Part shown: piece after piece, positions 4,470 to 57,950 of the stretch
How the letters are laid out: each line of letters starts with the position of its first letter
How positions within the stretch are numbered: the first letter of the stretch is position 1
NCBI RefSeq assembly: GCF_053078305.1
Contig: NZ_CP166875.1
DNA length: 64,000 nucleotides
Direction: 5' to 3' (one strand)
Source: a plasmid
The notes under the pieces: generated by a model
What the model was told of the DNA's origin: nothing
The model's input: only the letters and a program-made list of their open reading frames with translations
The model's database searches: none
Made by a program: the position numbers and the translations under genes

Positions 4470-4504
4470 AGGAATACAAATATTTTCTGGTGACCATATC
4501 TGTC

Positions 4505-4545
4505 AATCCGACTGTAAAACCCTGTTCACTAAGTCCGGGGTTTTA
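4505..4545. terminator. Hairpin (aaaaccc...ggggtttt) between convergent trbC and nikB, probable bidirectional terminator
   Basis: Inverted repeat visible in intergenic sequence between convergent genes. Confidence 0.4.
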
Positions 4546-4689
4546 CGGCACACTGGATAAGGGCCGCAGACACGGCCCTTAATTCAGAGTTAACCGGGTA
4601 TAAACTCAATTCAGTGACTACTCCCGCCCTTATTGACGAAGGTTCCTGCCGTTTTGGGGCTGAATCTTTGCACCATCACTTATCCGGGC

Positions 4690-22183: not shown

Positions 22184-22635
22184 TAATACCCCGACAAGAT
22201 TAAATTCTGGTTAACGATATCATTATACAGCGAATAATATAATTATGGTTCACGTATTATTATCCGTGACTCTTTCCTGGTAACTCCCGCATAATAACTT
22301 CACTTTTCCAGTATTCCAGAAGATGATGTTTTTTCCTCGATAATAAAAATGTGCCAATATGGAAATAAGAAATCGGATTTTTTATCAGCATACGCAAATT
22401 TTCAGATAACAATGAATACAGATGTATTTTATATACACAGATAAAACCGCGCAACAGACATAAATATGACAGTAGCATGAAAAAGCAGAGAGAGACAGGG
22501 TGATACAGAAAAGTAACTATTTTTTTAGCTATAGTATTATTGGTTTTACCTATTTTCGTGATTGTGTTTCTGTATATTGGGGGTTCGCGCCCATTTCCTC
22601 TAAAAGTCTCACCTTGCTTAGGTAATTAATTGAAT

Positions 22636-23217
22636 TTATTTATAAAACGTTGCAATTTTAGCATCATTTTTTATTGTTCTTTTTAACCTGAAGTACGTCG
22701 ATCGAGAGATACCTGTTTTTTCTGTCACACTGCCCAGAGATTCTCCCTGTGATATAAGCTCCAACGCTGTAGGCGTTCGTGGATGCTTCTTCCTGCCAAA
22801 TTTTACGCCTGCGGCAAGTGCCGCTATTCTTCCGTCGTTTGTCCGCTCCAGAATACGCTCACGTTCCGCTTCAGCTACAGCAGCAAGGATTTGGATAACC
22901 ATTTTGCCCATTGTCCCTTCTGTACTGAGACCGTTCTCCAGGAACCGGATGGCGATCCCCTTTTTGTAACAGCTATCAACCACACGAATCATGTCAGCAG
23001 TGTTACGCCCCAGTCGGTCCATTTTTGTACAGATGATTACGTCGTCTTTCTCTGCACGGGCCAACAACCGCTGTAGTCCTTCCCGTTCATCAGTTGCGCC
23101 AGTCATCATATCCGTAAAAATACGATCTTCCCGTACCCCGGCATTTTTTAGCTCCGAGATTTGATGTGTTAGCTTCTGATGACTGGTTGATACCCGTGCA
23201 TACCCCAATAACGCCAT
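22636..23217 (-). CDS. tnpR: Serine recombinase / resolvase
   Basis: N-terminal catalytic serine motif (GYARVSTSHQ), C-terminal HTH; divergent from the transposase gene. Confidence 0.85.
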   Translation of the reverse strand: MALLGYARVSTSHQKLTHQISELKNAGVREDRIFTDMMTGATDEREGLQRLLARAEKDDVIICTKMDRLGRNTADMIRVVDSCYKKGIAIRFLENGLSTEGTMGKMVIQILAAVAEAERERILERTNDGRIAALAAGVKFGRKKHPRTPTALELISQGESLGSVTEKTGISRSTYFRLKRTIKNDAKIATFYK

Positions 23218-23373
23218 TTTTAGTCTCACTTATCGTTTTTGACACTGCATGGTATCATAATGTACAAAATACGATTTTTGAAACCTGCTTTTATGCTGTT
23301 TTAGACAGGTATCAGATATCTTAATATTTGATACTAGCCATATTTAACAAATATTTAGCATTTTGGTAAATGT

Positions 23374-26300: not shown

Positions 26301-26412
26301 AGGGAATTATTCTTTTGAAGATCAAGTTGCGATCACAAATTTGGACAGTCTTTTGGAGGGAGTAGACCCACTAAGTGATATCGGAGATATTGAGTCCGAA
26401 TATGACGGTTAA
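23374..26412 (+). CDS. tnpA: Tn3-family DDE transposase
   Basis: 1012 aa, size and organisation typical of Tn3-family TnpA; AT-rich codon usage unlike the backbone. Confidence 0.8.
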   Translation: MQKYKKRISILTKSEINELYQVPSFNPVERDEFFSLDISLKREIDKIINIESRVYLILITGYFRYKPVIPEFTLKDVKRDVKYIIQTYYKNESTNLNLNIPKSTKYRLVKRMLSTLGFEQLTPSIKNELSERLNDVATICMEPKYIFDELLAFLGQRRIALPGYSTVQNLVSDALNFERKRTINILSKRIYPATAQKITSIIHDDGILNSIRGYNYSTRDFSASEIENELRTHNVISSIYYEIKDIINSLGISQGNMEYYATIVKHSTTFRLKRHPKWQGILYLCCYLYFRYREINDKIITAFRYLVKKHKDASVLFAKARATEEIDLINKKLKFASKIFNFFVDSNIEDSIPFGYVREKVFSLISKDDMHLVSEFFDKNKIDVIEYQWQYIDSHHLKIANSIRKLFLAIDIVYDNEKSVIGQQITAAKDDLRGKGKLDAKDLRVIHPSEKNYIVKEGEINTQRFEFHMYSRVSNHLENGVFYAAESEQNKRLEDDLIERSYWHKNKSILIEKTGLERLITPITQTLNELENTFSDKLARITIGINSDANEFVKKQPHSNRLQWSLASKKWKTSIDNPIYNQIKNIGIVDVMKYVNNETNFLSVFNAISSRKNNLEADYNDLLACIFGNGANYGVHRMASASDRSIGILRDVNDKFIRPETTGMANTVISDAIANLSVYKYWTINEDSPFGSVDGQKHTCRINTFKARYSAKYFRKGKGVSAMTLVSNHVPLSTVVISPNEYEGHFAFDLLYNNTSEIQPKSLATDNHGINNVNFAILDIFGYQFSPRYAKFKKIFNELFDVILESDKLIIKLKKQFNFKLIEHEWENIQHIICSLSRKTTIQSTVVKKLSNTKRSNKTLAALREYDRVIKCIYVLDYADNKTLRQFVQQALNRGEAYHQLRRAIASVNGNQFRGGNDYQIDQWNDCARLIANCVIYYNSAILSRLVEKFEKENNKKAIDVLANLSPVAWRHILLGGNYSFEDQVAITNLDSLLEGVDPLSDIGDIESEYDG

Positions 26413-26478
26413 CAACATGATAAATAATGGTTTTTATGCTAAGAGTGAGACTTTTGGAGGAAATGGGCGCAGAACCCC

Positions 26479-37890: not shown

Positions 37891-37965
37891 TATGCCCGGA
37901 AAAGTTCAAGACTTCTTTCTGTGCTCGCTCCTTCTGCGCATTGTAAGTGCAGGATGGTGTGACTG
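37891..37965 (+). CDS. tap: RepA leader peptide Tap (RepA6)
   Basis: 24-codon [27 protein letters not shown] whose stop overlaps the repA start. Confidence 0.7.
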
Positions 37966-38816
37966 ATCTTCAACAAACGTATTACCGCCAGGTAAAGAAC
38001 CCGAATCCGGTGTTTACACCCCGTAAAGGTGCCGGAACGCTGAAGTTCTGCGAAAAACTGATGGAAAAGGCGGTGGGCTTCACCTCCCGTTTTGATTTCG
38101 CCATTCATGTGGCGCATGCCCGTTCGCGTGGTCTGCGTCGACGCATGCCACCGGTGCTGCGTCGACGGGCTATTGATGCGCTGCTGCAGGGGCTGTGTTT
38201 CCATTATGACCCGCTGGCCAACCGCGTCCAGTGTTCCATTACCACACTGGCCATTGAGTGCGGACTGGCGACAGAGTCCGGTGCAGGAAAACTCTCCATC
38301 ACCCGGGCCACCCGGGCCCTGACGTTCCTGTCAGAGCTGGGACTGATTACCTACCAGACGGAATATGATCCGCTTATCGGGTGCTACATTCCGACCGATA
38401 TCACGTTCACACCGGCGCTGTTTGCCGCCCTTGATGTGTCTGAGGATGCAGTGGCAGCTGCGCGCCGCAGCCGTGTGGTATGGGAAAACAGACAGCGCAA
38501 AAAGCAGGGGCTGGATACCCTGGGTATGGATGAGCTGATAGCGAAAGCCTGGCGTTTTGTCCGTGAGCGTTTCCGCAGTTACCAGACAGAGCTTAAGTCC
38601 CACGGCATGAAACGTGCCCGTGCGCGCCGCGATGCAGGCAGAACCCGCCAGGACATTGTCACCCTGGTGAAACGGCAGCTGACGCGTGAAATCGCGGAAG
38701 GGCGTTTCCGGGGAAGCCTGGAGGCCGTGAAGCGCGAAATCGACCGTCGTGTGAAGGAACGCATGATAATGTCGCGTAACAACAACTACACACGGCTGGC
38801 CACTGCCTCCCCCTGA
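37959..38816 (+). CDS. repA: IncFII replication initiator RepA1
   Basis: 285 aa from the start overlapping the tap stop; recognised RepA1 sequence. Confidence 0.9.
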
Positions 38817-43068: not shown

Positions 43069-43125
43069 GGGGGTTCGCGCCCATTTCCTCTAAAAGTCTC
43101 ACCTTGCTTAGGTAATTAATTGAAT

Positions 43126-43707
43126 TTATTTATAAAACGTTGCAATTTTAGCATCATTTTTTATTGTTCTTTTTAACCTGAAGTACGTCGATCGAGAGAT
43201 ACCTGTTTTTTCTGTCACACTGCCCAGAGATTCTCCCTGTGATATAAGCTCCAACGCTGTAGGCGTTCGTGGATGCTTCTTCCTGCCAAATTTTACGCCT
43301 GCGGCAAGTGCCGCTATTCTTCCGTCGTTTGTCCGCTCCAGAATACGCTCACGTTCCGCTTCAGCTACAGCAGCAAGGATTTGGATAACCATTTTGCCCA
43401 TTGTCCCTTCTGTACTGAGACCGTTCTCCAGGAACCGGATGGCGATCCCCTTTTTGTAACAGCTATCAACCACACGAATCATGTCAGCAGTGTTACGCCC
43501 CAGTCGGTCCATTTTTGTACAGATGATTACGTCGTCTTTCTCTGCACGGGCCAACAACCGCTGTAGTCCTTCCCGTTCATCAGTTGCGCCAGTCATCATA
43601 TCCGTAAAAATACGATCTTCCCGTACCCCGGCATTTTTTAGCTCCGAGATTTGATGTGTTAGCTTCTGATGACTGGTTGATACCCGTGCATACCCCAATA
43701 ACGCCAT
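43126..43707 (-). CDS. tnpR: Serine recombinase / resolvase (copy 2)
   Basis: Identical to 22636-23217. Confidence 0.85.
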   Translation of the reverse strand: MALLGYARVSTSHQKLTHQISELKNAGVREDRIFTDMMTGATDEREGLQRLLARAEKDDVIICTKMDRLGRNTADMIRVVDSCYKKGIAIRFLENGLSTEGTMGKMVIQILAAVAEAERERILERTNDGRIAALAAGVKFGRKKHPRTPTALELISQGESLGSVTEKTGISRSTYFRLKRTIKNDAKIATFYK

Positions 43708-43863
43708 TTTTAGTCTCACTTATCGTTTTTGACACTGCATGGTATCATAATGTACAAAATACGATTTTTGAAACCTGCTTTTATGCTGTTTTAGACAGGT
43801 ATCAGATATCTTAATATTTGATACTAGCCATATTTAACAAATATTTAGCATTTTGGTAAATGT

Positions 43864-46800
43864 ATGCAGAAGTACAAGAAAAGAATTAGTATATTAACAA
43901 AAAGTGAAATAAATGAATTATATCAAGTCCCCTCTTTTAATCCTGTTGAAAGGGATGAGTTTTTTTCGCTGGATATCAGCCTTAAAAGAGAAATTGATAA
44001 AATAATAAATATAGAAAGCAGGGTGTATCTGATATTAATAACAGGGTATTTCAGATATAAACCTGTGATTCCTGAATTTACATTAAAAGACGTAAAAAGG
44101 GATGTGAAATATATTATCCAGACATATTATAAAAACGAAAGTACTAATCTCAATTTAAACATACCTAAAAGTACAAAGTACCGCCTTGTTAAACGAATGC
44201 TTTCTACTCTAGGATTTGAACAACTCACCCCATCTATAAAAAATGAGTTAAGTGAACGTCTGAATGATGTTGCTACTATATGTATGGAACCAAAATATAT
44301 TTTTGATGAATTACTTGCTTTTTTAGGACAGCGGCGTATAGCTCTTCCTGGATACAGTACTGTCCAGAACCTCGTTTCAGATGCTTTAAACTTTGAAAGG
44401 AAAAGGACAATTAATATTTTGTCAAAGAGAATTTATCCTGCCACTGCACAAAAGATTACATCCATCATCCATGATGATGGAATATTAAATTCCATCAGGG
44501 GATATAATTATAGCACGAGAGACTTCTCAGCATCAGAAATAGAAAATGAATTAAGAACTCACAATGTGATAAGTAGTATTTACTATGAAATAAAAGATAT
44601 AATTAATTCATTAGGTATATCCCAGGGAAACATGGAGTACTATGCAACTATCGTAAAACACAGTACAACATTCAGACTTAAGCGACACCCTAAATGGCAA
44701 GGAATACTTTATTTGTGCTGCTACTTGTACTTCAGATACAGAGAGATAAATGATAAAATAATCACAGCCTTCAGATATTTAGTAAAAAAACATAAAGACG
44801 CTTCAGTTTTGTTTGCAAAAGCTCGGGCAACAGAGGAAATAGATCTAATAAATAAAAAGCTTAAGTTTGCGAGTAAAATATTTAACTTCTTCGTTGATAG
44901 TAACATTGAAGACAGCATCCCTTTTGGATATGTTCGTGAAAAGGTTTTTTCACTTATATCGAAAGATGATATGCATCTTGTGAGTGAATTTTTTGACAAA
45001 AATAAAATCGATGTAATTGAATATCAATGGCAGTATATTGACAGCCATCACCTTAAGATCGCCAATTCAATCCGAAAGCTTTTTCTGGCTATAGATATAG
45101 TATATGACAACGAGAAGTCTGTTATTGGCCAGCAAATTACTGCTGCCAAGGATGATCTCAGAGGAAAAGGAAAGCTGGATGCTAAGGATCTGAGGGTAAT
45201 TCATCCATCCGAGAAAAATTACATTGTAAAAGAAGGAGAAATTAACACTCAACGATTCGAATTTCATATGTACAGCAGGGTATCTAACCATCTGGAAAAC
45301 GGTGTCTTTTATGCTGCGGAGAGTGAACAAAACAAGAGACTGGAAGATGATCTCATAGAACGAAGTTACTGGCATAAGAATAAATCGATTTTGATAGAGA
45401 AAACAGGCCTTGAACGACTTATCACACCAATAACGCAGACTCTTAATGAGCTGGAGAATACCTTTAGCGATAAACTGGCTCGTATAACCATTGGAATAAA
45501 CTCAGATGCTAATGAGTTTGTGAAAAAACAACCACACTCCAACAGATTACAGTGGAGTCTGGCCAGTAAAAAATGGAAGACCAGCATCGATAATCCGATT
45601 TACAATCAGATAAAAAATATCGGAATAGTTGACGTAATGAAGTATGTAAACAATGAGACGAATTTTTTGTCTGTGTTTAATGCCATATCATCCAGGAAAA
45701 ATAATCTTGAAGCTGACTATAATGACCTTCTTGCCTGTATATTTGGTAATGGCGCAAATTATGGTGTTCACAGAATGGCATCTGCATCAGACCGTAGTAT
45801 TGGAATACTACGTGATGTGAATGACAAATTCATTCGTCCAGAAACAACAGGAATGGCCAACACAGTAATATCTGATGCAATTGCAAATCTTTCTGTATAT
45901 AAATACTGGACGATAAATGAAGATTCTCCATTTGGAAGTGTTGATGGGCAGAAGCACACTTGCAGAATAAATACATTTAAAGCCCGTTATTCTGCCAAGT
46001 ATTTCAGAAAGGGGAAAGGGGTTTCTGCGATGACACTGGTATCTAATCATGTGCCATTATCAACTGTGGTAATTTCTCCAAATGAATATGAAGGTCATTT
46101 TGCATTTGACTTGTTATATAACAACACCAGTGAAATACAACCAAAGTCATTAGCGACTGACAATCATGGTATAAACAACGTTAATTTTGCGATTCTTGAC
46201 ATTTTTGGCTATCAGTTTTCACCACGTTATGCAAAATTCAAGAAAATATTTAATGAATTATTTGATGTTATACTGGAGAGTGATAAACTCATTATAAAAC
46301 TTAAAAAACAATTTAACTTTAAGCTCATTGAACATGAATGGGAAAACATCCAACATATTATTTGTTCTTTAAGCAGAAAAACAACCATTCAAAGTACGGT
46401 TGTTAAGAAGTTATCTAATACAAAGCGTAGCAACAAGACATTAGCAGCACTTCGGGAGTATGACCGAGTTATAAAATGCATATATGTCCTGGATTATGCT
46501 GACAATAAAACCTTAAGGCAATTTGTGCAACAAGCACTGAACAGAGGTGAAGCTTATCATCAACTAAGAAGAGCAATAGCATCAGTAAATGGAAATCAAT
46601 TTCGCGGTGGTAATGACTACCAAATAGATCAATGGAACGACTGTGCGAGGTTAATAGCTAATTGTGTAATCTATTATAATTCAGCAATATTATCCAGGCT
46701 GGTCGAGAAATTTGAAAAAGAAAATAATAAAAAAGCGATAGATGTTCTGGCTAACTTATCCCCAGTAGCATGGAGACACATTCTCCTTGGAGGGAATTAT

Positions 46801-46902
46801 TCTTTTGAAGATCAAGTTGCGATCACAAATTTGGACAGTCTTTTGGAGGGAGTAGACCCACTAAGTGATATCGGAGATATTGAGTCCGAATATGACGGTT
46901 AA
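43864..46902 (+). CDS. tnpA: Tn3-family DDE transposase (copy 2)
   Basis: Identical to 23374-26412. Confidence 0.8.
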   Translation: MQKYKKRISILTKSEINELYQVPSFNPVERDEFFSLDISLKREIDKIINIESRVYLILITGYFRYKPVIPEFTLKDVKRDVKYIIQTYYKNESTNLNLNIPKSTKYRLVKRMLSTLGFEQLTPSIKNELSERLNDVATICMEPKYIFDELLAFLGQRRIALPGYSTVQNLVSDALNFERKRTINILSKRIYPATAQKITSIIHDDGILNSIRGYNYSTRDFSASEIENELRTHNVISSIYYEIKDIINSLGISQGNMEYYATIVKHSTTFRLKRHPKWQGILYLCCYLYFRYREINDKIITAFRYLVKKHKDASVLFAKARATEEIDLINKKLKFASKIFNFFVDSNIEDSIPFGYVREKVFSLISKDDMHLVSEFFDKNKIDVIEYQWQYIDSHHLKIANSIRKLFLAIDIVYDNEKSVIGQQITAAKDDLRGKGKLDAKDLRVIHPSEKNYIVKEGEINTQRFEFHMYSRVSNHLENGVFYAAESEQNKRLEDDLIERSYWHKNKSILIEKTGLERLITPITQTLNELENTFSDKLARITIGINSDANEFVKKQPHSNRLQWSLASKKWKTSIDNPIYNQIKNIGIVDVMKYVNNETNFLSVFNAISSRKNNLEADYNDLLACIFGNGANYGVHRMASASDRSIGILRDVNDKFIRPETTGMANTVISDAIANLSVYKYWTINEDSPFGSVDGQKHTCRINTFKARYSAKYFRKGKGVSAMTLVSNHVPLSTVVISPNEYEGHFAFDLLYNNTSEIQPKSLATDNHGINNVNFAILDIFGYQFSPRYAKFKKIFNELFDVILESDKLIIKLKKQFNFKLIEHEWENIQHIICSLSRKTTIQSTVVKKLSNTKRSNKTLAALREYDRVIKCIYVLDYADNKTLRQFVQQALNRGEAYHQLRRAIASVNGNQFRGGNDYQIDQWNDCARLIANCVIYYNSAILSRLVEKFEKENNKKAIDVLANLSPVAWRHILLGGNYSFEDQVAITNLDSLLEGVDPLSDIGDIESEYDG

Positions 46903-46968
46903 CAACATGATAAATAATGGTTTTTATGCTAAGAGTGAGACTTTTGGAGGAAATGGGCGCAGAACCCC

Positions 46969-47214: not shown

Positions 47215-47241
47215 CTGCCATTGTTATTCTTTTCCTTCATC

Positions 47242-47275
47242 ATTAATGCTAATGTATGCATACATTAGCATTAAT
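47242..47275. promoter_or_regulatory. Perfect 34-bp palindrome, copy 2
   Basis: Identical to copy 1. Confidence 0.6.
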
Positions 47276-47299
47276 GATGGTGCGTTGAACGTACAATAA

Positions 47300-47420: not shown

Positions 47421-47577
47421 TAACCATTTGGCTTACTTCCGTACATTTCCTTGCGTAGATGTACAGAATTGTACGTTTTCGTACGGTTGGCCCTCAAACC
47501 CCATCCTTGAGTAGTGGCATAAGAAAACGGCTCCCTGTTGTGGAAGCCGTTATCAGTTGCACGATTAGCATTGGAGT

Positions 47578-48003
47578 TTAAAGGATACCTTTCTGAGAAA
47601 ATGTGATCCGGGTTGCTTCATTTAAATCCATATATTTTAGGGTGTCAGGAGATGCCCAGACTATATCCTGAAACTCCTCATTAAATGTAACTGTACGGTT
47701 TGTACTGATACAGTCGAATATTAGGTAAATCATGTAAATGTCCTCGTGGGTACCATCCGGGTACGTTTTTGTACGGATATCATCACGAAAGGCCCAGGGT
47801 TTTACGTCAGTGATATGCAGTTCTTTTCCCAGTTCTTCCTTTATTTCACGCCTCAATGCTGTTTCCATAGTCTCTCCGGGTTCCATTCCTCCACCGGGCA
47901 GTGCCCATTGGCCCGGGAATACTCCGCGATCAGAGGCCATTTTACAAAGTAGAAACTCACCTTCATTTTGTATCACAGGGCACACTATTACTCTCTGGCG
48001 CAT
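47578..48003 (-). CDS. Nudix hydrolase
   Basis: Nudix box [23 protein letters not shown]; low-GC operon. Confidence 0.8.
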
Positions 48004-48004
48004 T

Positions 48005-48739
48005 TTATGTCCTCAACATCATGGCTTTTTGGATAACCTTATCAGAAAAATCATCAATGTCATCCGGGTGAGCACATACCATAATCCGCTCACGAAGGTG
48101 TAACGGAAGATTATCAGTAAAATGTTGATATTCCGCATGCCATCCTGTGATCCATTTTATCTTCATTTCCTCATCTGGAAATTCTTCAGGCCGTACACCA
48201 TGAATTTCATCATCATTGAGATGCATGAGTGAATGTGCGATGGGATAATTAATGAATGCTATAATGTCTGGCTCTGTAAGTAATTCATTTATTCTACTCC
48301 AGAGCACCATGTATGCATCATATTGTGCTTTATTTATATATTCGGACTTCAGCATGAAGTTGATAAAAATATAATCCTCAATATGGGATCTCTCCATAAT
48401 AAGGTTAAACCCTTTATCCAGCCAAGATTTTATCAGTAATGCCCGTTGTATCATAAAATTAAGCTGGATTAGATAACCGTAGTTACTGGTATCGTCAAAA
48501 AGGTAAGGAAGGAGAGTGTGGTGGACACTTTTTTCATCTATCGCGACAGTGTCTGGATCTACCTTAAATAACTCCTTTGACATGCGTCTCAGAAGAGTAC
48601 TTTTACCTACACCGGAATTACCCGACAGACATATATACAGAGGATTTCGAGTTTTATTCTTCTCTTTTTTATCTGCTGACCAAGGATCCATATACAAGTA
48701 ATTATATCTCATACTGTAAACTCCATTTTGTCCAACCAA
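48005..48739 (-). CDS. P-loop nucleoside/nucleotide kinase (dNK/TMK-like)
   Basis: Walker [10 protein letters not shown] in an about 240 aa protein; overlaps both neighbours; start uncertain. Confidence 0.6.
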
Positions 48740-49575
48740 AAGCGGTTGTTCTTACATTTTTGCATGATTTCATTATTTCCGAAAATTGCACTGATTATAT
48801 GATCTTGTGAATCTGTCAGCATATTTCCCAACAGAGTATAGTTTTCTCCATCAGGGATAATAATGTCAAAATTGGGTTCCATAACAACATTGGCTTTGTC
48901 CCGTTCTTCGAAAGTTGCCCAACTAATGGGCATGTTAGGGTGTTGTTTTTTTAGCATTACCATTTTCTCTTTAAATATATCCGTATTGATTTCCAGTTTA
49001 TCTCTTTTTTCTTTTCCGACTCCTAGAGGACAGAACTGGTAAAATCGCCAAGCTTGGATCTTATAGGGCAGAGAATCAACCCAGCAAACAATATCACTGA
49101 GATGATTAATGTTAGACTGAGATACGACGGTCGTGAGTTTTATATTAATTCGATTATTATTTTGGGGTAACCATGTTAATATATTTTTGATAACCCTGTG
49201 TTGGTTACTCATTTTATCACTGCGAATTTCTGAATTGACAAGACTGTCAATTCCATCAATTGGTATTCCTACCCAGTCTAACACCGGATTTAACCGAGCA
49301 TGATCCATAATAAATCGATGCCCGACCGTGGAGAGATATGTCATAAAACCCAGTTGCTTAGCGTATTCAATCAGATCAATGAAATCACTCCGGGATGTAG
49401 GTTCCCCTCCGGTAAAACCGATACGACGGAATCCCATTTTATACATCCGCTCAATTACATTACGAGCACTAGCAAGAGAAGAGTCCTGAATTCCAGGTGT
49501 ACGAAAACACTGATCACATCCTAGGTTACAATGTGAAGTTATTCTGAAATCTAAAAGAAGGGTGCTAATATCCAT
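48709..49575 (-). CDS. Radical SAM enzyme, viperin-like (prokaryotic viperin candidate)
   Basis: CxxxCxxC (SHCNLGCDQCF), GGEP motif (IGFTGGEPT), and C-terminal WRFYQFCPLG region resembling viperin RWKVFQCLLIEG; 288 aa. Confidence 0.6.
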   Translation of the reverse strand: MDISTLLLDFRITSHCNLGCDQCFRTPGIQDSSLASARNVIERMYKMGFRRIGFTGGEPTSRSDFIDLIEYAKQLGFMTYLSTVGHRFIMDHARLNPVLDWVGIPIDGIDSLVNSEIRSDKMSNQHRVIKNILTWLPQNNNRINIKLTTVVSQSNINHLSDIVCWVDSLPYKIQAWRFYQFCPLGVGKEKRDKLEINTDIFKEKMVMLKKQHPNMPISWATFEERDKANVVMEPNFDIIIPDGENYTLLGNMLTDSQDHIISAIFGNNEIMQKCKNNRFWLDKMEFTV

Positions 49576-49861
49576 AACAAGTCCTCTGACTATGATACAT
49601 CAATAACCATTAAAACATAATGGTTATTGCAGACCATGACAAAGCGCAACCTTCGGCTTACCAGGGATATAATATCTGCCAGTAATCAGAGCAGTGGGTT
49701 GCGCAAGGAACTCATGAATGATGAGTTCCGGTAATCGCATTACTGGAAGCCCATGATCGGAGGGACGCTATCAGTCACACCAGTGAAAATTGTGCACAGA
49801 AGCATTTTCATCACTGACAGGCCGTATGCCTCACAAGACGGGAGATAACTGGAGAATATTT

Positions 49862-50059: not shown

Positions 50060-50311
50060 ATGCCTAACATCATTCTGTCTGACATCAGTGCAAGTGTCAG
50101 TGAACTGAAAAAAAATCCGATGGCGACAGTCGGTGCTGGTGATGGTTATCCGGTCGCCATTCTGAATCGCAATCAGCCGGCATTCTACTGTGTTCCTGCT
50201 GAACTGTATGAAAGGATGCTTGATGCTCTGGATGACCAGGAGCTGGTGAAACTGGTTACTGAACGTAGCAGTCAACCTCTGCATGATGTTGACCTGGACA
50301 GTTATTCATGA
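50060..50311 (+). CDS. Phd/YefM-family antitoxin
   Basis: 83 aa; stop overlaps start of the downstream toxin. Confidence 0.65.
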   Translation: MPNIILSDISASVSELKKNPMATVGAGDGYPVAILNRNQPAFYCVPAELYERMLDALDDQELVKLVTERSSQPLHDVDLDSYS

Positions 50312-50595
50312 CTTATACGATAAAATTCAGGGATGATGCGCTTAAAGAATGGCTGAAACTGGATAAGACCATTCAACAACAGTTTGTGAAAAAACTAAAA
50401 AAATGTAGCAAAAATCCTCATATACTGTCTGCAAAACTACGTGGGCTAAAGGACTGCTACAAAATTAAACTTCGTGCATCGGGATTTCGTCTGGTTTATC
50501 AGGTGATTGATGATATGTTAATTATTGCGGTTGTTGCGGTAGGTAAACGAGAACGTAGTAACGTTTATTATCTCGCCAGTGAGAGAATGAGATAG
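50308..50595 (+). CDS. RelE/ParE-family toxin
   Basis: 95 aa; coupled to the YefM-like antitoxin. Confidence 0.65.
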   Translation: MTYTIKFRDDALKEWLKLDKTIQQQFVKKLKKCSKNPHILSAKLRGLKDCYKIKLRASGFRLVYQVIDDMLIIAVVAVGKRERSNVYYLASERMR

Positions 50596-50759: not shown

Positions 50760-51167
50760 TTGATGACAATACTTGTGACGGCACAGGCTCAACTCATAGT
50801 TGGTGAGGCTATGGCGATAAAAAGTTTAGCTCCTGATGGAATGTTGGCCGCTGTATTTGAAGACGACGGGAATACCGGATATTTCTATGCACTTGATGAG
50901 TCCGTTGAAGGTAACCCTGTCAGGGATGCTGTGCATATATATAACGTTGAAGACATTTCAGATGCTCACATCCCCTCTGATGTGAAGATTGGCTGGTCTG
51001 AGGATTGCCTGAAGTGTGTTCTGCTGATAAACGGATATCCACATGGGGTATTCGATTTTGAGGGGAAGAACGGCTACTGTCGAAGTGGATTCCCGCCACC
51101 GGTTAATCATGAATGGTCTGTTCAGGGGCATTCATGGGATGATTACGTCGATAATTTCTTCCGGTGA
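50760..51167 (+). CDS. Hypothetical protein (DUF2251-like)
   Basis: 135 aa ORF; no recognised motif. Confidence 0.4.
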   Translation: MMTILVTAQAQLIVGEAMAIKSLAPDGMLAAVFEDDGNTGYFYALDESVEGNPVRDAVHIYNVEDISDAHIPSDVKIGWSEDCLKCVLLINGYPHGVFDFEGKNGYCRSGFPPPVNHEWSVQGHSWDDYVDNFFR

Positions 51168-51475: not shown

Positions 51476-52960
51476 ATGCGAAAAATAATTGCTCATTTCA
51501 AGATAGTTTTAACCTTACTTTTGCCCGCAACAGTATCTGCCCAGTCGATAGAGTGGCAATCCTGTATGACCACTCCATTTAGTAACTGGTTTGGTGAGGA
51601 AAAACCGTCTCCTGACTTACTATGTGGTTATTTGTCTGTTCCATTAAAATATACAGACACAGGCGGAGATAGTTCTTCTGTAAAAAGACAGCAGGTAAAA
51701 CTGGCGCTGACAAAATTGCCAGCAAAAAGCAGGCATAAAGGGAGTATCATTATAATAAGTGGTGGACCAGGATTACCTGGCATTAATCCTTATATTAACT
51801 TTGACTGGCCGGTAACAAATCTTCGCGAATCATGGGATATTATTGGCTTTGATCCACGGGGAGTCGGCCAGTCCATTCCTGCAATAAACTGCCAGCAATC
51901 AGATACAGGGATTCAGGAAAACATAACTGAAAAGCAACGGGTATTAAATAAAATTAACAGCTGTATCCATAATACCGGAACTGAAGTTATTCGCCATATT
52001 GGTTCTAACGAGGCGGTATATGATATTGATCGTATCAGGCAAGCCCTGGGTGACGAGCAACTGACAGCTGTGGCATATTCGTATGGAACACAAATTGCAG
52101 CCTTATATGCAGAACGTTTCCCATCCAGCATCAGATCTATCGTTCTTGATGGGGTCGTCGATATTGATGACCTGGGGGACAACTTCACATGGCAACTCAA
52201 ACAAGCACAGAGTTATCAGGAAACGTTCGATCGCTTTGCATCCTGGTGTGCACGTACAAAAAGTTGCCCACTTTCTTCAGTCAGAGATAAGGCAATAACT
52301 CAGTTCCATGAGCTGTTATCAAAATTGCATCACAAGCCTTTATTAGACAGCAAGGGAGAAAATATATCTTCAGATGAACTCATATTATTAACAACAGACC
52401 TTTTGTTATGGCGTTCATCATGGCCAACCCTTGCAACTGCCATACGTCAGTTCTCTCAGGGGATTGTCAGTAATGAAATTGAAACTGCGCTCAGTACTCC
52501 TATAGCCTCAGAAGAGTCAAGTGATGCTCTGGGGGTAATCCTTTGTGTTGATCAGGGGGGGGAGCAATTAACCCCAGAAGAGCGAAAATCCCGAAAAGAC
52601 GCTCTTGCGAATGCCTTCCCGGCTATTAACTTTGACAATGGACGTTCCGATTCACCTGATTTTTGTGAATTATGGCCAATACATAGCAACCTGAATAAAA
52701 CCCGGCTGAAAAATACAGTTCTGCCCTCTGGTTTACTGTTTGTAGCACACAAATACGATCCAACAACACCATGGATTAATGCTCGTAAGATGGCAGAGAA
52801 ATTTTCCAGCCCGTTGCTGACAATAAATGGTGATGGGCATACATTAGCTCTTACCGGAGTCAATTTATGTGTAGATAAGGCCGTTGTTCGTCATCTTATC
52901 ACCCCTATGAAAATGGGAAATATATCCTGTCCAGGAAATGCTGAAATAGATATAAAATAG
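51476..52960 (+). CDS. Secreted alpha/beta-hydrolase (S33 peptidase-like)
   Basis: Signal peptide; nucleophile elbow AYSYGT (GxSxG); 494 aa. Confidence 0.6.
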   Translation: MRKIIAHFKIVLTLLLPATVSAQSIEWQSCMTTPFSNWFGEEKPSPDLLCGYLSVPLKYTDTGGDSSSVKRQQVKLALTKLPAKSRHKGSIIIISGGPGLPGINPYINFDWPVTNLRESWDIIGFDPRGVGQSIPAINCQQSDTGIQENITEKQRVLNKINSCIHNTGTEVIRHIGSNEAVYDIDRIRQALGDEQLTAVAYSYGTQIAALYAERFPSSIRSIVLDGVVDIDDLGDNFTWQLKQAQSYQETFDRFASWCARTKSCPLSSVRDKAITQFHELLSKLHHKPLLDSKGENISSDELILLTTDLLLWRSSWPTLATAIRQFSQGIVSNEIETALSTPIASEESSDALGVILCVDQGGEQLTPEERKSRKDALANAFPAINFDNGRSDSPDFCELWPIHSNLNKTRLKNTVLPSGLLFVAHKYDPTTPWINARKMAEKFSSPLLTINGDGHTLALTGVNLCVDKAVVRHLITPMKMGNISCPGNAEIDIK

Positions 52961-54416: not shown

Positions 54417-54638
54417 TCAGTGAAACGCAGATAAACAGTAAAGCAAATCCAGACTCCAGTACGGAATAATCGTCAGCGGTATTAACGGGATCCGGTGCTC
54501 CCAGTCAAACACCAGGCTGCTGATGTTTTCTCTCCCGGCGGTAAACTGATTCGTCATGCCATAAGTAAGAAAGAAGAATGGGGCCAGCACCATTAGCCAG
54601 CCGATTCCCTGAATAATCACCGCACGCCGCGTTGTCAT
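54417..54638 (-). pseudogene. YnbD-like membrane protein, N-terminal fragment only
   Basis: 73 aa with transmembrane segment, coupled to the upstream gene, then premature stop. Confidence 0.35.
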
Positions 54639-56395
54639 GGTTGACGTCGTACCGCCATAGAGACCGTGAAGATGCCCATTTCATCAATTAGTTGCGTGCA
54701 TTTCTCAAAACCGGCGTCACGGACCAGCGCGTCCATCTCGCCCTGAGTACGTACGCGCATTACCCAGGCTTTGCCATTTTTGTGACTGGTGAGTGACCAG
54801 GCGATGGTTTTTAACTGAGGGTGCCAGGGCTGACAGGTGTAGATCAGAATGCCTCCCGGTTCAATCGCTGCAGCCAGCCCGGCAAGCGAATCTCGTACCG
54901 GCCCGTTTTCCGGGAACAGTTCATACAGACCGGACACGATCCCCAGCGTCGGACGCGGTTCCAGTGCCGCCAGTTCATTACGATTAAAGGCATCCCCCTG
55001 CTCAAATCGCGCACGGCCCACCATACCGCGAGAGGCTATCATCTCCTGACCTTTCGCCACGTTTAATTCGCTGTAATCGCGCAGAAGGATCTCGCTTACC
55101 GCCGTTTCGCCTTGCAGGGCATCAAGCACATAGCGTCCATGCCCGGCGGCAATATCCACGATCCGGACCGAGCTACCCTGCTCTGTTAACCGAGCAACAG
55201 CCTGCTGAATTAACATCTGCAGATGAATTTTACGCTGGCGGATCCCCTTCCAGCCCACGCTATTCAGGTAGTTTTTATCAATGAGGCGCCCCAACGAGGT
55301 GCTGCCCTGAGGCTGGTTGCGATAGATGTAGTCTAGGGTACTGCCGGAATCGAAACCAGTCTCAAATCCCAGACGCACCCCCGTGGACTGCGTGCCCAGC
55401 ACTTTCATCCCGTAGCGCAAACAGCGGTAAGAGATATCGTCCAGCGAATACAGCGCAGGGCCACCGCTCAGTATGCGCCAAGTATCGGCGCTGGGGCTCC
55501 AGCGATCTTCCTGGCTGTAATCAAAACGCTGCACGGGACGGGCATACAAGGTATCAATAAAACTGCGCATCCTGTCAAATGCCAGATGCCGCTCTTTTTC
55601 GCCTAAGGTGTCATGATAAAATCCCGGCAGTACATGCAGTTCTTTCTGCGGATTTCGCAGGTTCTGATAAAAATCAAGCTGCGGCTGGCGGTGCACAACG
55701 TAATCTTCCCCGGAGACCAGCAACTGCACAGGTAGCGTAATGGCGCTGGCATCGCTGACGACTCGCTCAGCCGTTTTGTAGAGATCAAGCAGAATATTCA
55801 CAGCAATTGGTCGGGTAATCAGCGGATCCTTATTGAAGCTTGCCACCCGCTCGGGATCGTGCGTCAGATACTTGCCTTTCACATACGAGTTGACGAAGAA
55901 AAGACCGCGCAGGCGATACATCAATTCCAGCCCCTGGCGAGCAAACGGCACATACAATTTGACCTTAAACGCCGGTGATGCCAACACCAGGCCACGAATG
56001 TCCGGGGCATAATCATGCGCCCAGGTTGCCGCCAGAACCGCCCCGACGCTTTGCGCCACGACGACCACATCCGTCATCCCAGCTTGGCTATCTGCGGCGG
56101 CGAAACGCACAAACTCGTCAACATCCTGCACCGAACGCACGAGCGACGGACTGTAACCACGCAGACCCGGTGAGCGACCATGACCTCGGGCATCCATGGC
56201 ATAAAACGCTGTATCCGGCATCGCCAGCTCATCAACAATGTGTTGCAAACGCCCGGAGTGCTCATGCCCACGATGAAACAGGACCACCACTTTTGGCGTT
56301 GAACTGGCTTCTTGTGCTGGCCAGTGGCGATAAAACAGCTCTGTATTATCACTGGTCAGAAACTGCCGTTCATCGGGTATGCGGGAATTAGTCAT
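54635..56395 (-). CDS. Bifunctional alpha/beta hydrolase + class I SAM-dependent methyltransferase (YnbC-like)
   Basis: 586 aa; N-terminal hydrolase region (HRGHEHSGR..., AQSVGA) and C-terminal MTase region (VDIAAGHGR). Confidence 0.6.
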
Positions 56396-57029
56396 GGGGA
56401 TGATTTCCTTGCGAGGGTTGCAAAAGCGCCGTTAGTCTTTGCTCCAGGTCGTCCATAAACGTTTTCTTCTCCGGATGCGTACTTAGCGCATCGCCAATAT
56501 TTACATCAATAAACAGCGGCAAAGGGATACGATTACCTTTCGCCATCACACGCTCAGTACCGCGCAACCCAACGGGGATAATGGGCACCTCCGGCATGCG
56601 CTGACTCAAATGCCACACTCCGGATTTCAATGGCGCAAGTACGCCTGGCTCACCGCGCGTCCCTTCCGGAAACAGGATCAGTGTTTTACCTTCACGCAGC
56701 GCCTGTTCACATTGCGCCAGCGGATCGGTATAACAGCCCTTTCTTGAAATAGGAATGATGTTAAGGATCTTCAGCGCAAACCAAGCCATGCGTTTATCCC
56801 GCAGAAAATAATCCGCGGCAGCAACCGGATGAACAGAAGCCTGGTAACGCAGCGGAAAAAGCGAAAGCAAGGCGAAAACATCCATATGGCTGTTGTGATT
56901 TGCCACGATTATCGAAGGCCCGTGCTTCGGCAGTCGCTCGCGGTGGCGGACACGCAGACCAAGCCACAGCCAGATGACCGGCCAGACGATACACAGCGTA
57001 AACAGGGTACGGAGTAGTCGTGTCATCAT
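56388..57029 (-). CDS. Lysophospholipid acyltransferase (PlsC-like)
   Basis: HxxxxD motif (ANHNSHMD) and PEGTR motif (FPEGTRG). Confidence 0.7.
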   Translation of the reverse strand: MMTRLLRTLFTLCIVWPVIWLWLGLRVRHRERLPKHGPSIIVANHNSHMDVFALLSLFPLRYQASVHPVAAADYFLRDKRMAWFALKILNIIPISRKGCYTDPLAQCEQALREGKTLILFPEGTRGEPGVLAPLKSGVWHLSQRMPEVPIIPVGLRGTERVMAKGNRIPLPLFIDVNIGDALSTHPEKKTFMDDLEQRLTALLQPSQGNHPHD

Positions 57030-57032
57030 AGG

Positions 57033-57950
57033 TTAGTAGCAGAAATAGCGAACAAAATGGAAGAAGACCGGTGCGGTAAAAATCAGCGAATCCAGCCGAT
57101 CAAGGATGCCTCCATGGCCGGGTAGCAGCGTACCACTGTCTTTGACGCCGATATCACGCTTGATTGCCGACATCACCACGTCGCCGCAAAAGCCAGTAAC
57201 GCCGATAATAACCCCGGCTAACAGTGCCATCGGCCAGCTCAGGGGAGTCAACAGTGGCCCCAGGACTGTTGCCGCCAGCGCCGTCGTTGCCACCCCACCC
57301 AGCAATCCCTCCAGGGTTTTGTTTGGGCTGACCTTCGGTATGACTTTTATACGACCAAGCGACTTGCCCCACAGGTATTGCGCGATGTCGTTAAATTCGG
57401 TCAGGCCGACCAAAAACAGCACCAACAGCGCGCTGGTTTGCATTCCATCCGCCGGTAACACCAGTAAAAACGCGACATGGCTGAAGGCAAATACGGTGGT
57501 CATCAGACTCCAGTGCAACTGGGAAACGGTACGTAAAAAGCCCTGTGTATCCCCAGCAATCACCATTCGCGCCGGTAAAAAAAGGAACACGTAGACCGGG
57601 ATAAACACCACAAACATGCCGTACCAGCCGATACCTATCAGCCAGTAGTTAAGGGGAATTGCAATAAACATCCATAACAGCGGCATGCGGTCGGACTGGC
57701 GGGAAGGCACCAGCGTCAAAAACTCTTTTAGCGCCATAAAGCTGACCAGCGCGAAGAACGTCAGTGCCAGCCAGCTAGGACTTAATAGTGCGAAGGAAAA
57801 CAGGACGATAATCACCCACCAGGTGCGAATACGTAATGTCAGCTCGCGCCAGTCTTTACCTGGACGCAGCCACACCAGCAACCCGTTGATTACGGTGGCA
57901 ATCAACAGCAGGGAAAAAATAACGATCAGTGATTTTTCAAGTAGCGTCAT
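57033..57950 (-). CDS. CDP-diglyceride synthetase-like membrane protein (CdsA/YnbB-like)
   Basis: 305 aa polytopic membrane protein; C-terminal PGHGGILDRLDS signature. Confidence 0.65.
   Translation of the reverse strand: MTLLEKSLIVIFSLLLIATVINGLLVWLRPGKDWRELTLRIRTWWVIIVLFSFALLSPSWLALTFFALVSFMALKEFLTLVPSRQSDRMPLLWMFIAIPLNYWLIGIGWYGMFVVFIPVYVFLFLPARMVIAGDTQGFLRTVSQLHWSLMTTVFAFSHVAFLLVLPADGMQTSALLVLFLVGLTEFNDIAQYLWGKSLGRIKVIPKVSPNKTLEGLLGGVATTALAATVLGPLLTPLSWPMALLAGVIIGVTGFCGDVVMSAIKRDIGVKDSGTLLPGHGGILDRLDSLIFTAPVFFHFVRYFCY

What the first reader, a model, noticed from the sequence alone, without database searches (positions are those of the whole stretch)
47578..49575. Low-GC three-gene operon: viperin-like radical SAM enzyme + nucleotide kinase + Nudix hydrolase
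Seen in sequence: three overlapping minus-strand genes, much more AT-rich than the plasmid backbone. The first has a radical SAM CxxxCxxC motif (SHCNLGCDQCF), a GGEP motif, and a C-terminal WRFYQFCPLG block that parallels viperin. The second carries a Walker A P-loop (GNSGVGKST). The third has a canonical Nudix box. Established knowledge: prokaryotic viperins make chain-terminating ddh-nucleotides and are frequently encoded next to nucleotide kinases. Inference: this is a pVip-type antiviral module carried on a conjugative plasmid; the tightly coupled Nudix gene is not, to my knowledge, a standard part of such operons and could detoxify the product or shape substrate pools.
Basis: partly seen in the sequence, partly recalled or inferred. 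Interest (0 to 1): 0.85.

Follow-up and report, generated by a model that had tools for sequence, protein, structure and literature searches.

The report
Plasmid-borne thionucleoside antibiotic gene cassette
The three genes are real, but they are most likely not an antiviral viperin system: they match thmABC, a cassette shown in 2025 to make the antibiotic 4'-thiothymidine and to protect its producer, here carried on an E. coli conjugative plasmid.

Summary
Three co-directional minus-strand genes lie at 47578-49575: a radical SAM enzyme, a dNK-family kinase and a NudI-type Nudix hydrolase. They are tightly packed and AT-rich (GC 0.39 against 0.49 for the window).

The antiviral reading is not supported. 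The genes are collinear homologues (70%, 53% and 58% identity) of thmA, thmB and thmC of Photorhabdus asymbiotica. Son et al. (mBio 2025, PMC12691670) showed that this cluster is the minimal one for the nucleoside antibiotic 4'-thiothymidine, and that thmC alone confers self-resistance.

The predicted fold matches viperins best (TM about 0.77), and viperin HMMs are the top hits. But the score is below the curated cut-off (84 against 180 bits), and authentic ThmA scores the same. The viperin active-site tyrosine is Asn in all 28 family members. The kinase is AbmG-like, not CMPK2-like.

This is a new member of a known kind. Three points are absent from the paper's main text: carriage on conjugative plasmids, immunity-only remnants on other plasmids, and the viperin fold of ThmA. 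The product of this copy is untested.

The parts
48709..49575 (-). thmA-like radical SAM enzyme (288 aa). It has a viperin-like fold. Cluster motif C16/C20/C23, GGEP at 56-59, family-specific N229, C182 and C274.
   Evidence: ORF. 70% identity to P. asymbiotica ThmA. Pfam Radical_SAM only. AF2 pLDDT 92.5. Foldseek top hits are viperins. Residue comparison.
48005..48712 (-). thmB-like kinase of the deoxynucleoside-kinase family (235 aa from the ATG; the mechanical ORF runs on to a TTG at 48739). Walker A motif GNSGVGKST. Its start overlaps the thmA stop (ATGA).
   Evidence: ORF. 53% identity to ThmB. PF01712 dNK in orthologous loci. PDB 8j5e 'deoxyadenosine/deoxycytidine kinase', E 1.8e-30, 34% identity. 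PGAP start in NZ_CP045714.1. Junction sequence.
47578..48003 (-). thmC-like NudI-family Nudix nucleoside triphosphatase (141 aa), the predicted self-resistance gene. It starts 1 nt after the kinase stop.
   Evidence: NCBIfam NudI equivalog, 250.8 bits against a cut-off of 95. 58% identity to ThmC. 68% identity to solved NudI 6dt3. ThmC alone confers 4'sT resistance (PMC12691670).
49601..49642 (-). Candidate promoter (TTGTCA-17-TATGTT, 49642-49614) overlapped by a 12-nt perfect inverted repeat (49601-49612 / 49618-49629), a possible operator. An AGAGGA ribosome-binding site lies upstream of the thmA-like ATG.
   Evidence: Consensus scan, inverted repeat I4, sequence. These are pattern matches only and no function was tested.
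47526..47551 (-). Candidate intrinsic terminator: a 10-bp stem with 6 G-C pairs followed by a T-run, 27 nt downstream of the Nudix stop.
   Evidence: Consensus scan. Pattern match only.
47578..49589 (.). Extent of the transferable cassette. Nucleotide homology (75.7%) to the E. cloacae chromosomal copy begins and ends at the three genes.
   Evidence: blastn of the window against the fetched loci. The cassette is AT-rich relative to its flanks in every host examined.

Best explanation
The operon is a thmABC-type cassette. It is a three-gene biosynthetic cluster for a 4'-thio-2'-deoxynucleoside antibiotic, either 4'-thiothymidine or a close analogue, with a built-in self-resistance gene. It moves horizontally as a 2-kb unit and sits here on an E. 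coli conjugative plasmid.

Proposed mechanism:
1. The ThmA-like radical SAM enzyme has a viperin-type nucleotide-binding barrel. It binds a pyrimidine nucleotide, cleaves SAM and abstracts a sugar hydrogen. Because the viperin tyrosine is replaced, the radical is not resolved as a dehydration but channelled into replacement of the ring oxygen by sulfur. This step is inferred.
2. The ThmB-like kinase is homologous to AbmG. AbmG completes the albomycin thiofuranose by net dehydration through a cryptic phosphorylation. ThmB is proposed to complete ring formation in the same way, or to phosphorylate intermediates. This step is inferred by homology.
3. The ThmC-like NudI hydrolase cleaves the toxic triphosphate form in the producer, so that it is not built into the producer's own DNA. 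Resistance was shown for ThmC. The chemistry is inferred from NudI's preference for pyrimidine dNTPs, which I recall from the literature rather than tested here.
4. The released nucleoside is taken up by competitors, activated by thymidine kinase, incorporated into DNA, and blocks replication. This was shown for 4'sT in the paper.

On a plasmid the cassette would act as a small-molecule, colicin-like competition and immunity module.
For: Link to thmABC:
- The genes are in the same order with 70%, 53% and 58% identity to ThmA, ThmB and ThmC in the very genome used by Son et al. (GCA_000196475.1). The primer sequences in the paper's supplement match the gene starts.
- The paper shows that thmA-C expressed in E. 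coli yields 4'sT. It also shows that thmC alone raises the MIC from 0.125 to more than 128 ug/mL without affecting AZT. It reports homologous three-gene clusters in Enterobacterales and Vibrio.

Coherence of the family:
- The radical SAM family is compact. It has 77 hits, and identity then falls to 38% or less, and only over partial alignments.
- The cassette recurs intact at unrelated chromosomal sites. Nucleotide homology stops at the gene ends, and GC is low in every host.

Kinase and Nudix:
- The kinase matches PDB 8j5e at E 1.8e-30. ThmB is 35.6% identical to 8j5e over 174 of its 254 residues. The paper reports 34.5% identity and 69% cover for ThmB against AbmG.
- The Nudix protein is a NudI equivalog at 250 bits.

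Distinction from viperin:
- N229 replaces the viperin tyrosine in 28 of 28 family members. The tyrosine is kept in 78 of 108 nearest relatives and in 4 of 4 viperins. Two cysteines, C182 and C274, are specific to the family.
Against: - Nothing was measured for this copy. At 53-70% identity the product could differ in base or sugar.
- The original cluster is silent in Photorhabdus until activated, so expression here is unknown.
- The enzymology of ThmA is unknown even in the source paper, which says only that it is 'presumably involved in sulfur incorporation'.
- ThmA is unrelated to the albomycin sulfur-inserting enzyme AbmM beyond the cluster-binding region.
- The tyrosine-to-asparagine assignment rests on a sequence alignment, not on a structural superposition.
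- I could not read the AbmG or AbmM papers. Their roles are taken from their titles and from the summary in PMC12691670.
- That 8j5e is AbmG is an inference, not a confirmed identity.
Confidence: 0.85

Rival explanations
1. A pVip-type antiphage module. The radical SAM enzyme converts an NTP to a chain-terminating ddhNTP. The kinase supplies substrate and the Nudix enzyme limits self-toxicity.
For: - pVip HMMs are the best hits: PDLC02904 'viperins associated with kinases' at 104.5 bits, E 1.6e-30, and NF038283 as the top NCBIfam hit.
- Viperins are the best structural matches.
- Basic residues equivalent to viperin K120, K220 and K247 are kept as R51, K146 and R177.
- The Nudix protein hits the PADLOC candidate PDC-S07 at E 5e-17.
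- The cassette is mobile and AT-rich.
Against: - The 70%-identical cluster makes 4'-thiothymidine in E. coli.
- The NF038283 score of 84 bits is far under the cut-off of 180. Authentic ThmA scores the same on both viperin models, while human viperin scores 261 bits.
- The viperin tyrosine column is Asn in the whole family.
- N77 and H79 of the viperin motif are Asp and Arg here.
- The kinase is dNK/AbmG-like, not the CMPK2-type NMP kinase that accompanies most viperins.
- Chromosomal copies sit between housekeeping genes, not in defence islands.
Confidence: 0.04
2. The cassette belongs to the thmABC family but makes a different modified nucleoside, for example a 4'-thio analogue of deoxyuridine or deoxycytidine, or another sugar modification. 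Its target spectrum would then differ.
For: - Divergence from ThmA, ThmB and ThmC is substantial at 70, 53 and 58% identity.
- The source paper states that the products of the homologous clusters are uncharacterised.
- More distant family members pair the enzyme with other partners: dNK without a Nudix gene, or a HAD hydrolase plus a phosphoribosyltransferase.
Against: - Every residue that is at least 90% conserved in the family, including N229, C182 and C274, is shared by the window protein and ThmA.
- Gene order and gene lengths are the same.
- NudI-type enzymes favour pyrimidine dNTPs (from my own knowledge of the literature), which fits a thymidine analogue.
Confidence: 0.1
3. A nucleotide salvage and sanitation islet with no antibiotic role. 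A deoxynucleoside kinase and a NudI house-cleaning enzyme are linked to a radical SAM enzyme that repairs or modifies nucleotides for the host's own use.
For: - PGAP names the genes 'deoxynucleoside kinase' and 'NudI'.
- Stand-alone NudI proteins with solved structures are 67-70% identical to the cassette copies.
- Chromosomal copies lie among metabolic genes.
Against: - A bioactive product and resistance were shown experimentally for the homologous cluster.
- The distribution is patchy and horizontal, with foreign GC content.
- Immunity-only remnants on plasmids fit a toxin and immunity logic better than housekeeping.
Confidence: 0.01

Closest known systems
thmA-thmB-thmC of Photorhabdus asymbiotica, the 4'-thiothymidine cluster (Son et al., mBio 2025, PMC12691670)
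   Same: - Three genes in the same order and orientation, with nearly the same lengths (288/235/141 against 289/254/141 aa).
- 70, 53 and 58% identity.
- Compact packing and low GC.
- All positions conserved across the family are shared.
   Different: - The window copy sits on an E. coli conjugative plasmid next to a Phd/RelE toxin-antitoxin pair and a Tn3-family element, not in a chromosome.
- The thmB-to-thmC spacer is 1 nt here and about 80 nt in Photorhabdus.
- The Nudix protein is closer to stand-alone NudI (68%) than to ThmC (58%).
- Product and expression are untested.
Viperin and prokaryotic viperins (pVip; ddhNTP synthases)
   Same: - Radical SAM partial barrel closed by a C-terminal extension.
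- Best structural and HMM matches.
- CxxxCxxCF and GGEP motifs.
- Basic residues at the positions of K120, K220 and K247.
- A W-(K/R)-x-(F/Y)-Q strand.
- A neighbouring nucleotide-type kinase.
   Different: - HMM score below the family threshold.
- N77 and H79 become Asp and Arg, R245 becomes Ala, and N222 becomes Thr.
- The tyrosine column is Asn.
- Two extra conserved cysteines.
- The kinase belongs to the dNK/AbmG family.
- The characterised homologue gives a thionucleoside antibiotic, not a ddh-nucleotide.
Albomycin thiofuranose enzymes AbmG (kinase/dehydratase) and AbmM (radical SAM sulfur-for-oxygen swap)
   Same: - A dNK-type kinase paired with a radical SAM enzyme to make a 4'-thionucleoside.
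- The window kinase is about 34% identical to PDB 8j5e, which is probably AbmG.
   Different: - The radical SAM partners are not homologous beyond the cluster-binding segment. AbmM (8wm2) scores E 3e-4 over residues 10-74 and Foldseek TM 0.55.
- Albomycin is a siderophore conjugate made by a large Streptomyces cluster.
- The albomycin cluster has no Nudix resistance gene as far as the sources I could read show.
NudI (YfaO), the stand-alone enterobacterial Nudix nucleoside triphosphatase
   Same: - Same length.
- 68% identity to the solved structure 6dt3.
- NCBIfam equivalog score of 250 bits.
   Different: Here the gene is translationally packed behind a biosynthetic pair, and by homology to ThmC it serves as antibiotic immunity rather than general house-cleaning.

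Membership tests
thmABC-type thionucleoside cassette | Three adjacent co-directional genes in the order radical SAM, AbmG-like kinase, NudI-like triphosphatase | tested here: met
   The same order is seen in P. asymbiotica, E. cloacae and V. rhizosphaerae.
thmABC-type thionucleoside cassette | The radical SAM protein belongs to the ThmA sequence family | tested here: met
   70% identity over 278 aa to ThmA. The family is separated by a large gap from everything else: the next hits reach at most 38% identity, and only over partial alignments. The next representatives score 188 bits or less, against 478 bits within the family.
thmABC-type thionucleoside cassette | The kinase is homologous to ThmB and AbmG | tested here: met
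   53% identity to ThmB. 34% identity to 8j5e, E 1.8e-30. That 8j5e is AbmG is inferred from matching identity and coverage figures and is not confirmed.
thmABC-type thionucleoside cassette | The triphosphatase is homologous to ThmC | tested here: met
   58% identity. Both are NudI equivalogs at 250-253 bits.
thmABC-type thionucleoside cassette | Production of 4'-thiothymidine, and resistance conferred by the Nudix gene | not testable with these tools
   Shown only for the Photorhabdus genes (PMC12691670).
Viperin / pVip | CxxxCxxC cluster motif and GGE SAM-binding motif | tested here: met
   C16/C20/C23 and G56-G57-E58 are invariant in the family.
Viperin / pVip | Viperin fold: a partial barrel closed by a C-terminal extension | tested here: met
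   AF2 pLDDT 92.5. The 18 best Foldseek PDB hits are viperins, with TM 0.71-0.78 over about 290 columns. The extension is not alignable by sequence; hhalign stops at residue 202.
Viperin / pVip | Score above the curated family threshold (NCBIfam NF038283, 180 bits) | tested here: not met
   84.2 bits. Human viperin scores 260.8 bits and ThmA 84.1 bits.
Viperin / pVip | The N-hydrophobic-H motif preceding the cluster cysteines (mouse N77 and H79). That this motif defines the family is recalled from Lachowicz et al. 2021, which I could not read. | tested here: not met
   Asp9 and Arg11, invariant in the family.
Viperin / pVip | Conserved active-site tyrosine (mouse Y302), proposed to act in proton-coupled electron transfer | tested here: not met
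   Asn229 in 28 of 28 family members. Tyr in 78 of 108 nearest relatives and in 4 of 4 viperins. The role of the tyrosine is as summarised in PMC8124187. The assignment is alignment-based and no superposition was possible.
Viperin / pVip | Conserved asparagine in the beta-8 loop that contacts the nucleobase in prokaryotic viperins (Shomar et al. preprint) | tested here: inconclusive
   An invariant N251 in a beta-hairpin is a candidate, but the alignment to viperin in this region is unreliable.
Viperin / pVip | ddhNTP synthesis and antiviral activity | not testable with these tools
   The characterised homologous cluster gave 4'-thiothymidine. ddh products were not reported there.

The most novel reading that the evidence does not exclude
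Three linked proposals that my evidence does not exclude:
1. Gut E. coli exchange a working small-molecule weapon on conjugative plasmids. It would be a 2-kb cassette that makes a 4'-thionucleoside lethal to susceptible E. coli at sub-microgram levels, with its own Nudix immunity gene.
2. Truncated cassettes that keep only the immunity gene, and possibly the stand-alone chromosomal nudI of enterobacteria (67-70% identical to the cassette copies), would be orphan or domesticated immunity genes against such compounds.
3. ThmA would be a viperin-type nucleotide radical enzyme in which loss of the quenching tyrosine and gain of two cysteines redirects the sugar radical from dehydration to sulfur insertion. 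That would link an innate-immunity enzyme scaffold to antibiotic biosynthesis.
Probability: 0.3. Interest if true: 0.65.

Novelty: new member of a known kind. Interest (0 to 1): 0.4.

Why it matters
- **Risk of mis-annotation.** Profile-based defence annotation would probably label this locus, and authentic ThmA, as a prokaryotic viperin. Both hit the pVip HMM at about E 1e-29 to 1e-30. The experimentally characterised homologue is in fact an antibiotic synthase.
- **A transmissible weapon.** Finding the cassette on conjugative E. coli plasmids suggests that a potent, strain-selective nucleoside antibiotic and its resistance gene can spread by conjugation among gut enterobacteria. The neighbouring region of the closest plasmid also carries colicin genes, and other plasmids keep only the immunity gene.
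- **A mechanistic lead.** The viperin-like fold with a replaced tyrosine gives a concrete starting hypothesis for the unknown sulfur-insertion chemistry of ThmA.

Tried and rejected
- **Pfam.** It gave only the generic Radical_SAM domain.
- **Literature on viperin plus Nudix.** The search found nothing relevant, and a search for the PDB code 8J5E found nothing.
- **Papers I could not read.** The viperin structure papers (Fenwick 2020, Lachowicz 2021) and the AbmG and AbmM papers are not held. Viperin residue roles therefore rest on secondary sources and on my own memory.
- **Search with human viperin.** It returned only vertebrate orthologues in the listed top 120. I obtained no bona fide pVip sequences, and the viperin side of the alignment is vertebrate only.
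- **Sequence-level comparisons.** Profile searches against PDB and hhalign align only the radical SAM core (residues 8 to about 200). There MoaA (41 bits) and GDGT-MAS (54 bits) score about as well as mouse viperin (43 bits). Sequence alone does not single out viperin; the fold search and the viperin HMMs do.
- **Flanking repeats.** A search for repeats around the cassette found no convincing insertion scars.
- **QueE- or activase-type enzyme.** Considered and rejected. These families score far lower: YjjW activase 29 bits and NrdG 26 bits.
Full report
**1. What is in the sequence**

Three minus-strand ORFs occupy 47578-49575:
- a 288-aa radical SAM protein at 48709-49575
- a kinase at 48005-48739 as a mechanical ORF, or 48005-48712 (235 aa) from the ATG used by PGAP in a near-identical plasmid
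- a 141-aa Nudix protein at 47578-48003

The first two genes overlap as ATGA, and the third starts 1 nt after the second ends. GC is 0.388 for the operon, 0.491 for the window and 0.48-0.53 for adjacent backbone. The window is a conjugative plasmid: it carries TrbC, a MOBP relaxase and IncFII RepA.

**2. First profile results**

PADLOC's best hit for the radical SAM protein is pVip 'viperins associated with kinases' (104.5 bits, E 1.6e-30). NCBIfam's best hit is viperin_w_prok, but at 84 bits against a curated cut-off of 180. Pfam sees only Radical_SAM.

The Nudix protein is a full-length NudI equivalog (250.8 bits, cut-off 95). It is 68% identical to the solved NudI structure 6dt3.

The kinase is not a viperin-associated kinase. 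Its only PADLOC VakA match is the P-loop. It matches PDB 8j5e 'deoxyadenosine/deoxycytidine kinase' at E 1.8e-30. Its orthologues carry Pfam dNK.

**3. Fold**

An AlphaFold2 model built from 28 family members is confident (pLDDT 92.5, pTM 0.90). The 18 best Foldseek hits in the PDB are all viperins or viperin-like enzymes (TM 0.71-0.78, 15-19% identity, about 290 aligned columns).

**4. Family and context**

The protein belongs to a compact family of 77 database clusters. Members come from E. coli, Enterobacter, Cronobacter, Pantoea, Xenorhabdus, Photorhabdus, Edwardsiella and Vibrio, and share 46-89% identity. Beyond them identity drops sharply, to 38% or less and only over partial alignments.

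The three-gene order recurs in the E. cloacae chromosome between yibL/mtlR and lldP, and in V. rhizosphaerae next to purMN. Nucleotide similarity between the window and the E. cloacae copy covers exactly 47578-49589. The cassette is AT-rich relative to its flanks in every host: 0.38 against 0.56, 0.40 against 0.47, and 0.34 against 0.42. It is therefore a horizontally moving 2-kb unit.

More distant members (58-59% identity, on contigs with Legionella-like gene content) keep the radical SAM and dNK pair without a Nudix gene. One member at 47% identity has a HAD hydrolase and a phosphoribosyltransferase as neighbours instead.

In E. coli the whole operon is rare. It occurs in 1 of 5,426 complete genomes and 1 of 72,556 PLSDB plasmids, both times on pFHI_NMBU_11_02 (IncFIA/FIC), at 99.7-99.8% identity.

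**5. The decisive link**

A literature search on the albomycin enzymes surfaced Son et al., mBio 2025 (PMC12691670). The paper makes the following points:
- In P. asymbiotica DSM 15149, thmA (radical SAM), thmB (a distant AbmG homologue) and thmC (a nucleoside triphosphatase) form the minimal cluster for 4'-thiothymidine (4'sT).
- Expression of thmA-C in E. coli BL21 gave 4'sT.
- Expression of thmC alone raised the 4'sT MIC from 0.125 to more than 128 ug/mL, with no effect on AZT.
- 4'sT is activated by thymidine kinase, enters DNA, blocks replication and induces the SOS response.
- Homologous three-gene clusters exist in Enterobacterales and Vibrio, with uncharacterised products.

I fetched that exact genome region (L008, FM162591.1). 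The cloning primers in the supplement match the gene starts, MYKPE... and MRQRIIVC.... The window proteins are 70%, 53% and 58% identical to ThmA, ThmB and ThmC, collinear and of matching length.

ThmB is 35.6% identical to the 8j5e fragment over 174 of its 254 residues. The paper reports 34.5% identity and 69% cover for ThmB against AbmG, so 8j5e is probably AbmG. This is inferred, not confirmed.

**6. Why the viperin HMM hits do not imply a viperin function**

Authentic ThmA gives the same hits as the window protein: PDLC02904 at 98.7 bits and NF038283 at 84.1 bits. Human viperin scores 260.8 bits on NF038283.

hhalign of the family against human viperin gives probability 97% but aligns only residues 8-202. 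The residue correspondences, in mouse viperin numbering, are:

| Mouse viperin | Window protein |
|---|---|
| N77 | D9 |
| H79 | R11 |
| K120 | R51 |
| K220 | K146 |
| N222 | T148 |
| R245 | A175 |
| K247 | R177 |

I also aligned the 28 family members with 108 of their nearest non-family relatives and 4 vertebrate viperins. The column of the viperin active-site tyrosine (mouse Y302) is Tyr in 4 of 4 viperins and in 78 of 108 relatives, but Asn229 in 28 of 28 ThmA-family proteins. Two cysteines, C182 and C274, are conserved only in the ThmA family.

The nearest relatives also fall short of the curated viperin threshold, at 72-125 bits. They tend to sit beside CYTH triphosphatases, thymidylate-kinase or dNK-like kinases, and HAD phosphatases. 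Typical viperin partners are CMPK2-type NMP kinases (Shomar et al. preprint).

**7. Mechanism, with shown and inferred steps marked**

- *Shown, for the homologue:* the three genes suffice for 4'sT production in E. coli. ThmC confers specific resistance. 4'sT acts through Tdk and DNA incorporation.
- *Inferred:* ThmA uses a viperin-type nucleotide pocket, with three of the phosphate-binding basic positions retained, to generate a sugar radical. With the tyrosine replaced, the radical is diverted to sulfur-for-oxygen exchange.
- *Inferred:* ThmB acts like AbmG, by net dehydration through cryptic phosphorylation, as summarised in PMC12691670.
- *Inferred:* ThmC hydrolyses the thio-dNTP to the monophosphate. 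This fits NudI's reported preference for pyrimidine dNTPs, which I recall from the literature and did not test.

The sulfur donor is unknown. The family has no second set of cluster-binding cysteines.

**8. Plasmid context**

Homology to pFHI_NMBU_11_02 runs from 47467 to at least 58821 (99.5%), the end of the fetched locus. That plasmid carries colicin and colicin-immunity genes a few kb from its copy of the operon. To the left, the window instead has a 3.9-kb Tn3-family element, present twice.

Another conjugative plasmid (NZ_CP027341.1, IncK2/Z) retains only the Nudix gene and 146 bp of the kinase next to an IS66 element. Two further plasmids carry related or disrupted copies. This pattern resembles orphan bacteriocin immunity genes.

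Stand-alone NudI (6dt3) is 67-70% identical to every cassette-linked copy. That is more than ThmC shares with the window copy.

**9. Verdict**

The finding is real and is now largely explained. It is a new member of the recently described thmABC family, not a pVip defence system. The source paper's main text does not mention viperin, NudI or Nudix, or natural plasmids. The viperin fold of ThmA, the NudI identity of ThmC and the carriage on conjugative plasmids are therefore modest additions. The product of this particular copy remains untested.

Noticed in passing
window 22579-26478 and 43069-46968: Two 100% identical direct copies of a 3.9-kb AT-rich Tn3-family element, each with a 197-aa resolvase and a 1012-aa transposase. 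They bracket about 16.6 kb that includes the IncFII repA gene (37947-38816). The same element occurs at 100% identity on two other plasmids of strain FHI_NMBU_11. This suggests a composite transposon or a cointegrate history.
   Followed up: partly
window 47238-47279: A perfect 42-bp palindrome (CATCATTAATGCTAATGTATG / CATACATTAGCATTAATGATG). It lies between the Tn3-family element and the point (47467) where homology to pFHI_NMBU_11_02 begins. Its function is unknown.
   Followed up: no
window 49601-49629: A 12-nt perfect inverted repeat (CAATAACCATTA N5 TAATGGTTATTG) overlaps the predicted promoter of the operon. It lies outside the region shared with the E. cloacae cassette. It may be a plasmid-specific operator controlling expression.
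   Followed up: no
L013 (NZ_CP027341.1, IncK2/Z plasmid) 5076-5501; also hits H33 and H34: Immunity-only remnants. An intact thmC-like nudI gene (99.5% nucleotide identity to the window over the 647-bp match) has lost the kinase and radical SAM genes next to an IS66 element. Two other E. coli plasmids carry related nudI or NUDIX genes, and one match also spans an IS256-family transposase.
   Followed up: partly
window 47578-48003 compared with PDB 6dt3, 3oga and 3n77: Stand-alone NudI proteins with solved structures are 67-70% identical to all cassette-linked copies, including experimentally validated ThmC. All score as one NCBIfam equivalog. Chromosomal nudI may share a recent origin with the antibiotic-immunity gene.
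   Followed up: partly
L007 8001-9664; JGI contigs of P0051 and P0065: More distant ThmA-family members (47-59% identity) lack the Nudix gene. Two keep the dNK kinase, on contigs rich in ankyrin, Fic and CsrA genes (Legionella-like). One is instead preceded by a HAD hydrolase and a phosphoribosyltransferase.
   Followed up: partly
L009-L012 (loci of P0081 and P0079): The nearest non-family relatives form a large set of about 280-aa viperin-like radical SAM proteins, all below the curated viperin threshold, and most keep the tyrosine. In these two sampled loci they sit next to CYTH triphosphatases, a thymidylate-kinase/dNK-like kinase, an AdoMet decarboxylase-like gene and HAD phosphatases. A few other relatives are fused to other domains, for example the caspase-like domain of P0109. 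This looks like an uncharted group of nucleotide-modifying modules.
   Followed up: partly
window 50060-50595: A Phd/YefM antitoxin and RelE/ParE toxin pair is transcribed divergently from the operon. A DUF2251 gene (50760-51167) and a 494-aa alpha/beta hydrolase whose N-terminus looks like a signal peptide (51476-52960; not tested) follow.
   Followed up: no
window 54635-57950: A minus-strand operon. In the near-identical plasmid its genes are annotated as a bifunctional alpha/beta hydrolase/SAM methyltransferase, a lysophospholipid acyltransferase and a phosphatidate cytidylyltransferase. This is unusual lipid-metabolism cargo for a plasmid.
   Followed up: no
window 2169-7410 and 37947-38816: The backbone is mosaic: an F-type TrbC, a TraI/MobA(P)-family relaxase and an IncFII RepA all lie in one window.
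   Followed up: no
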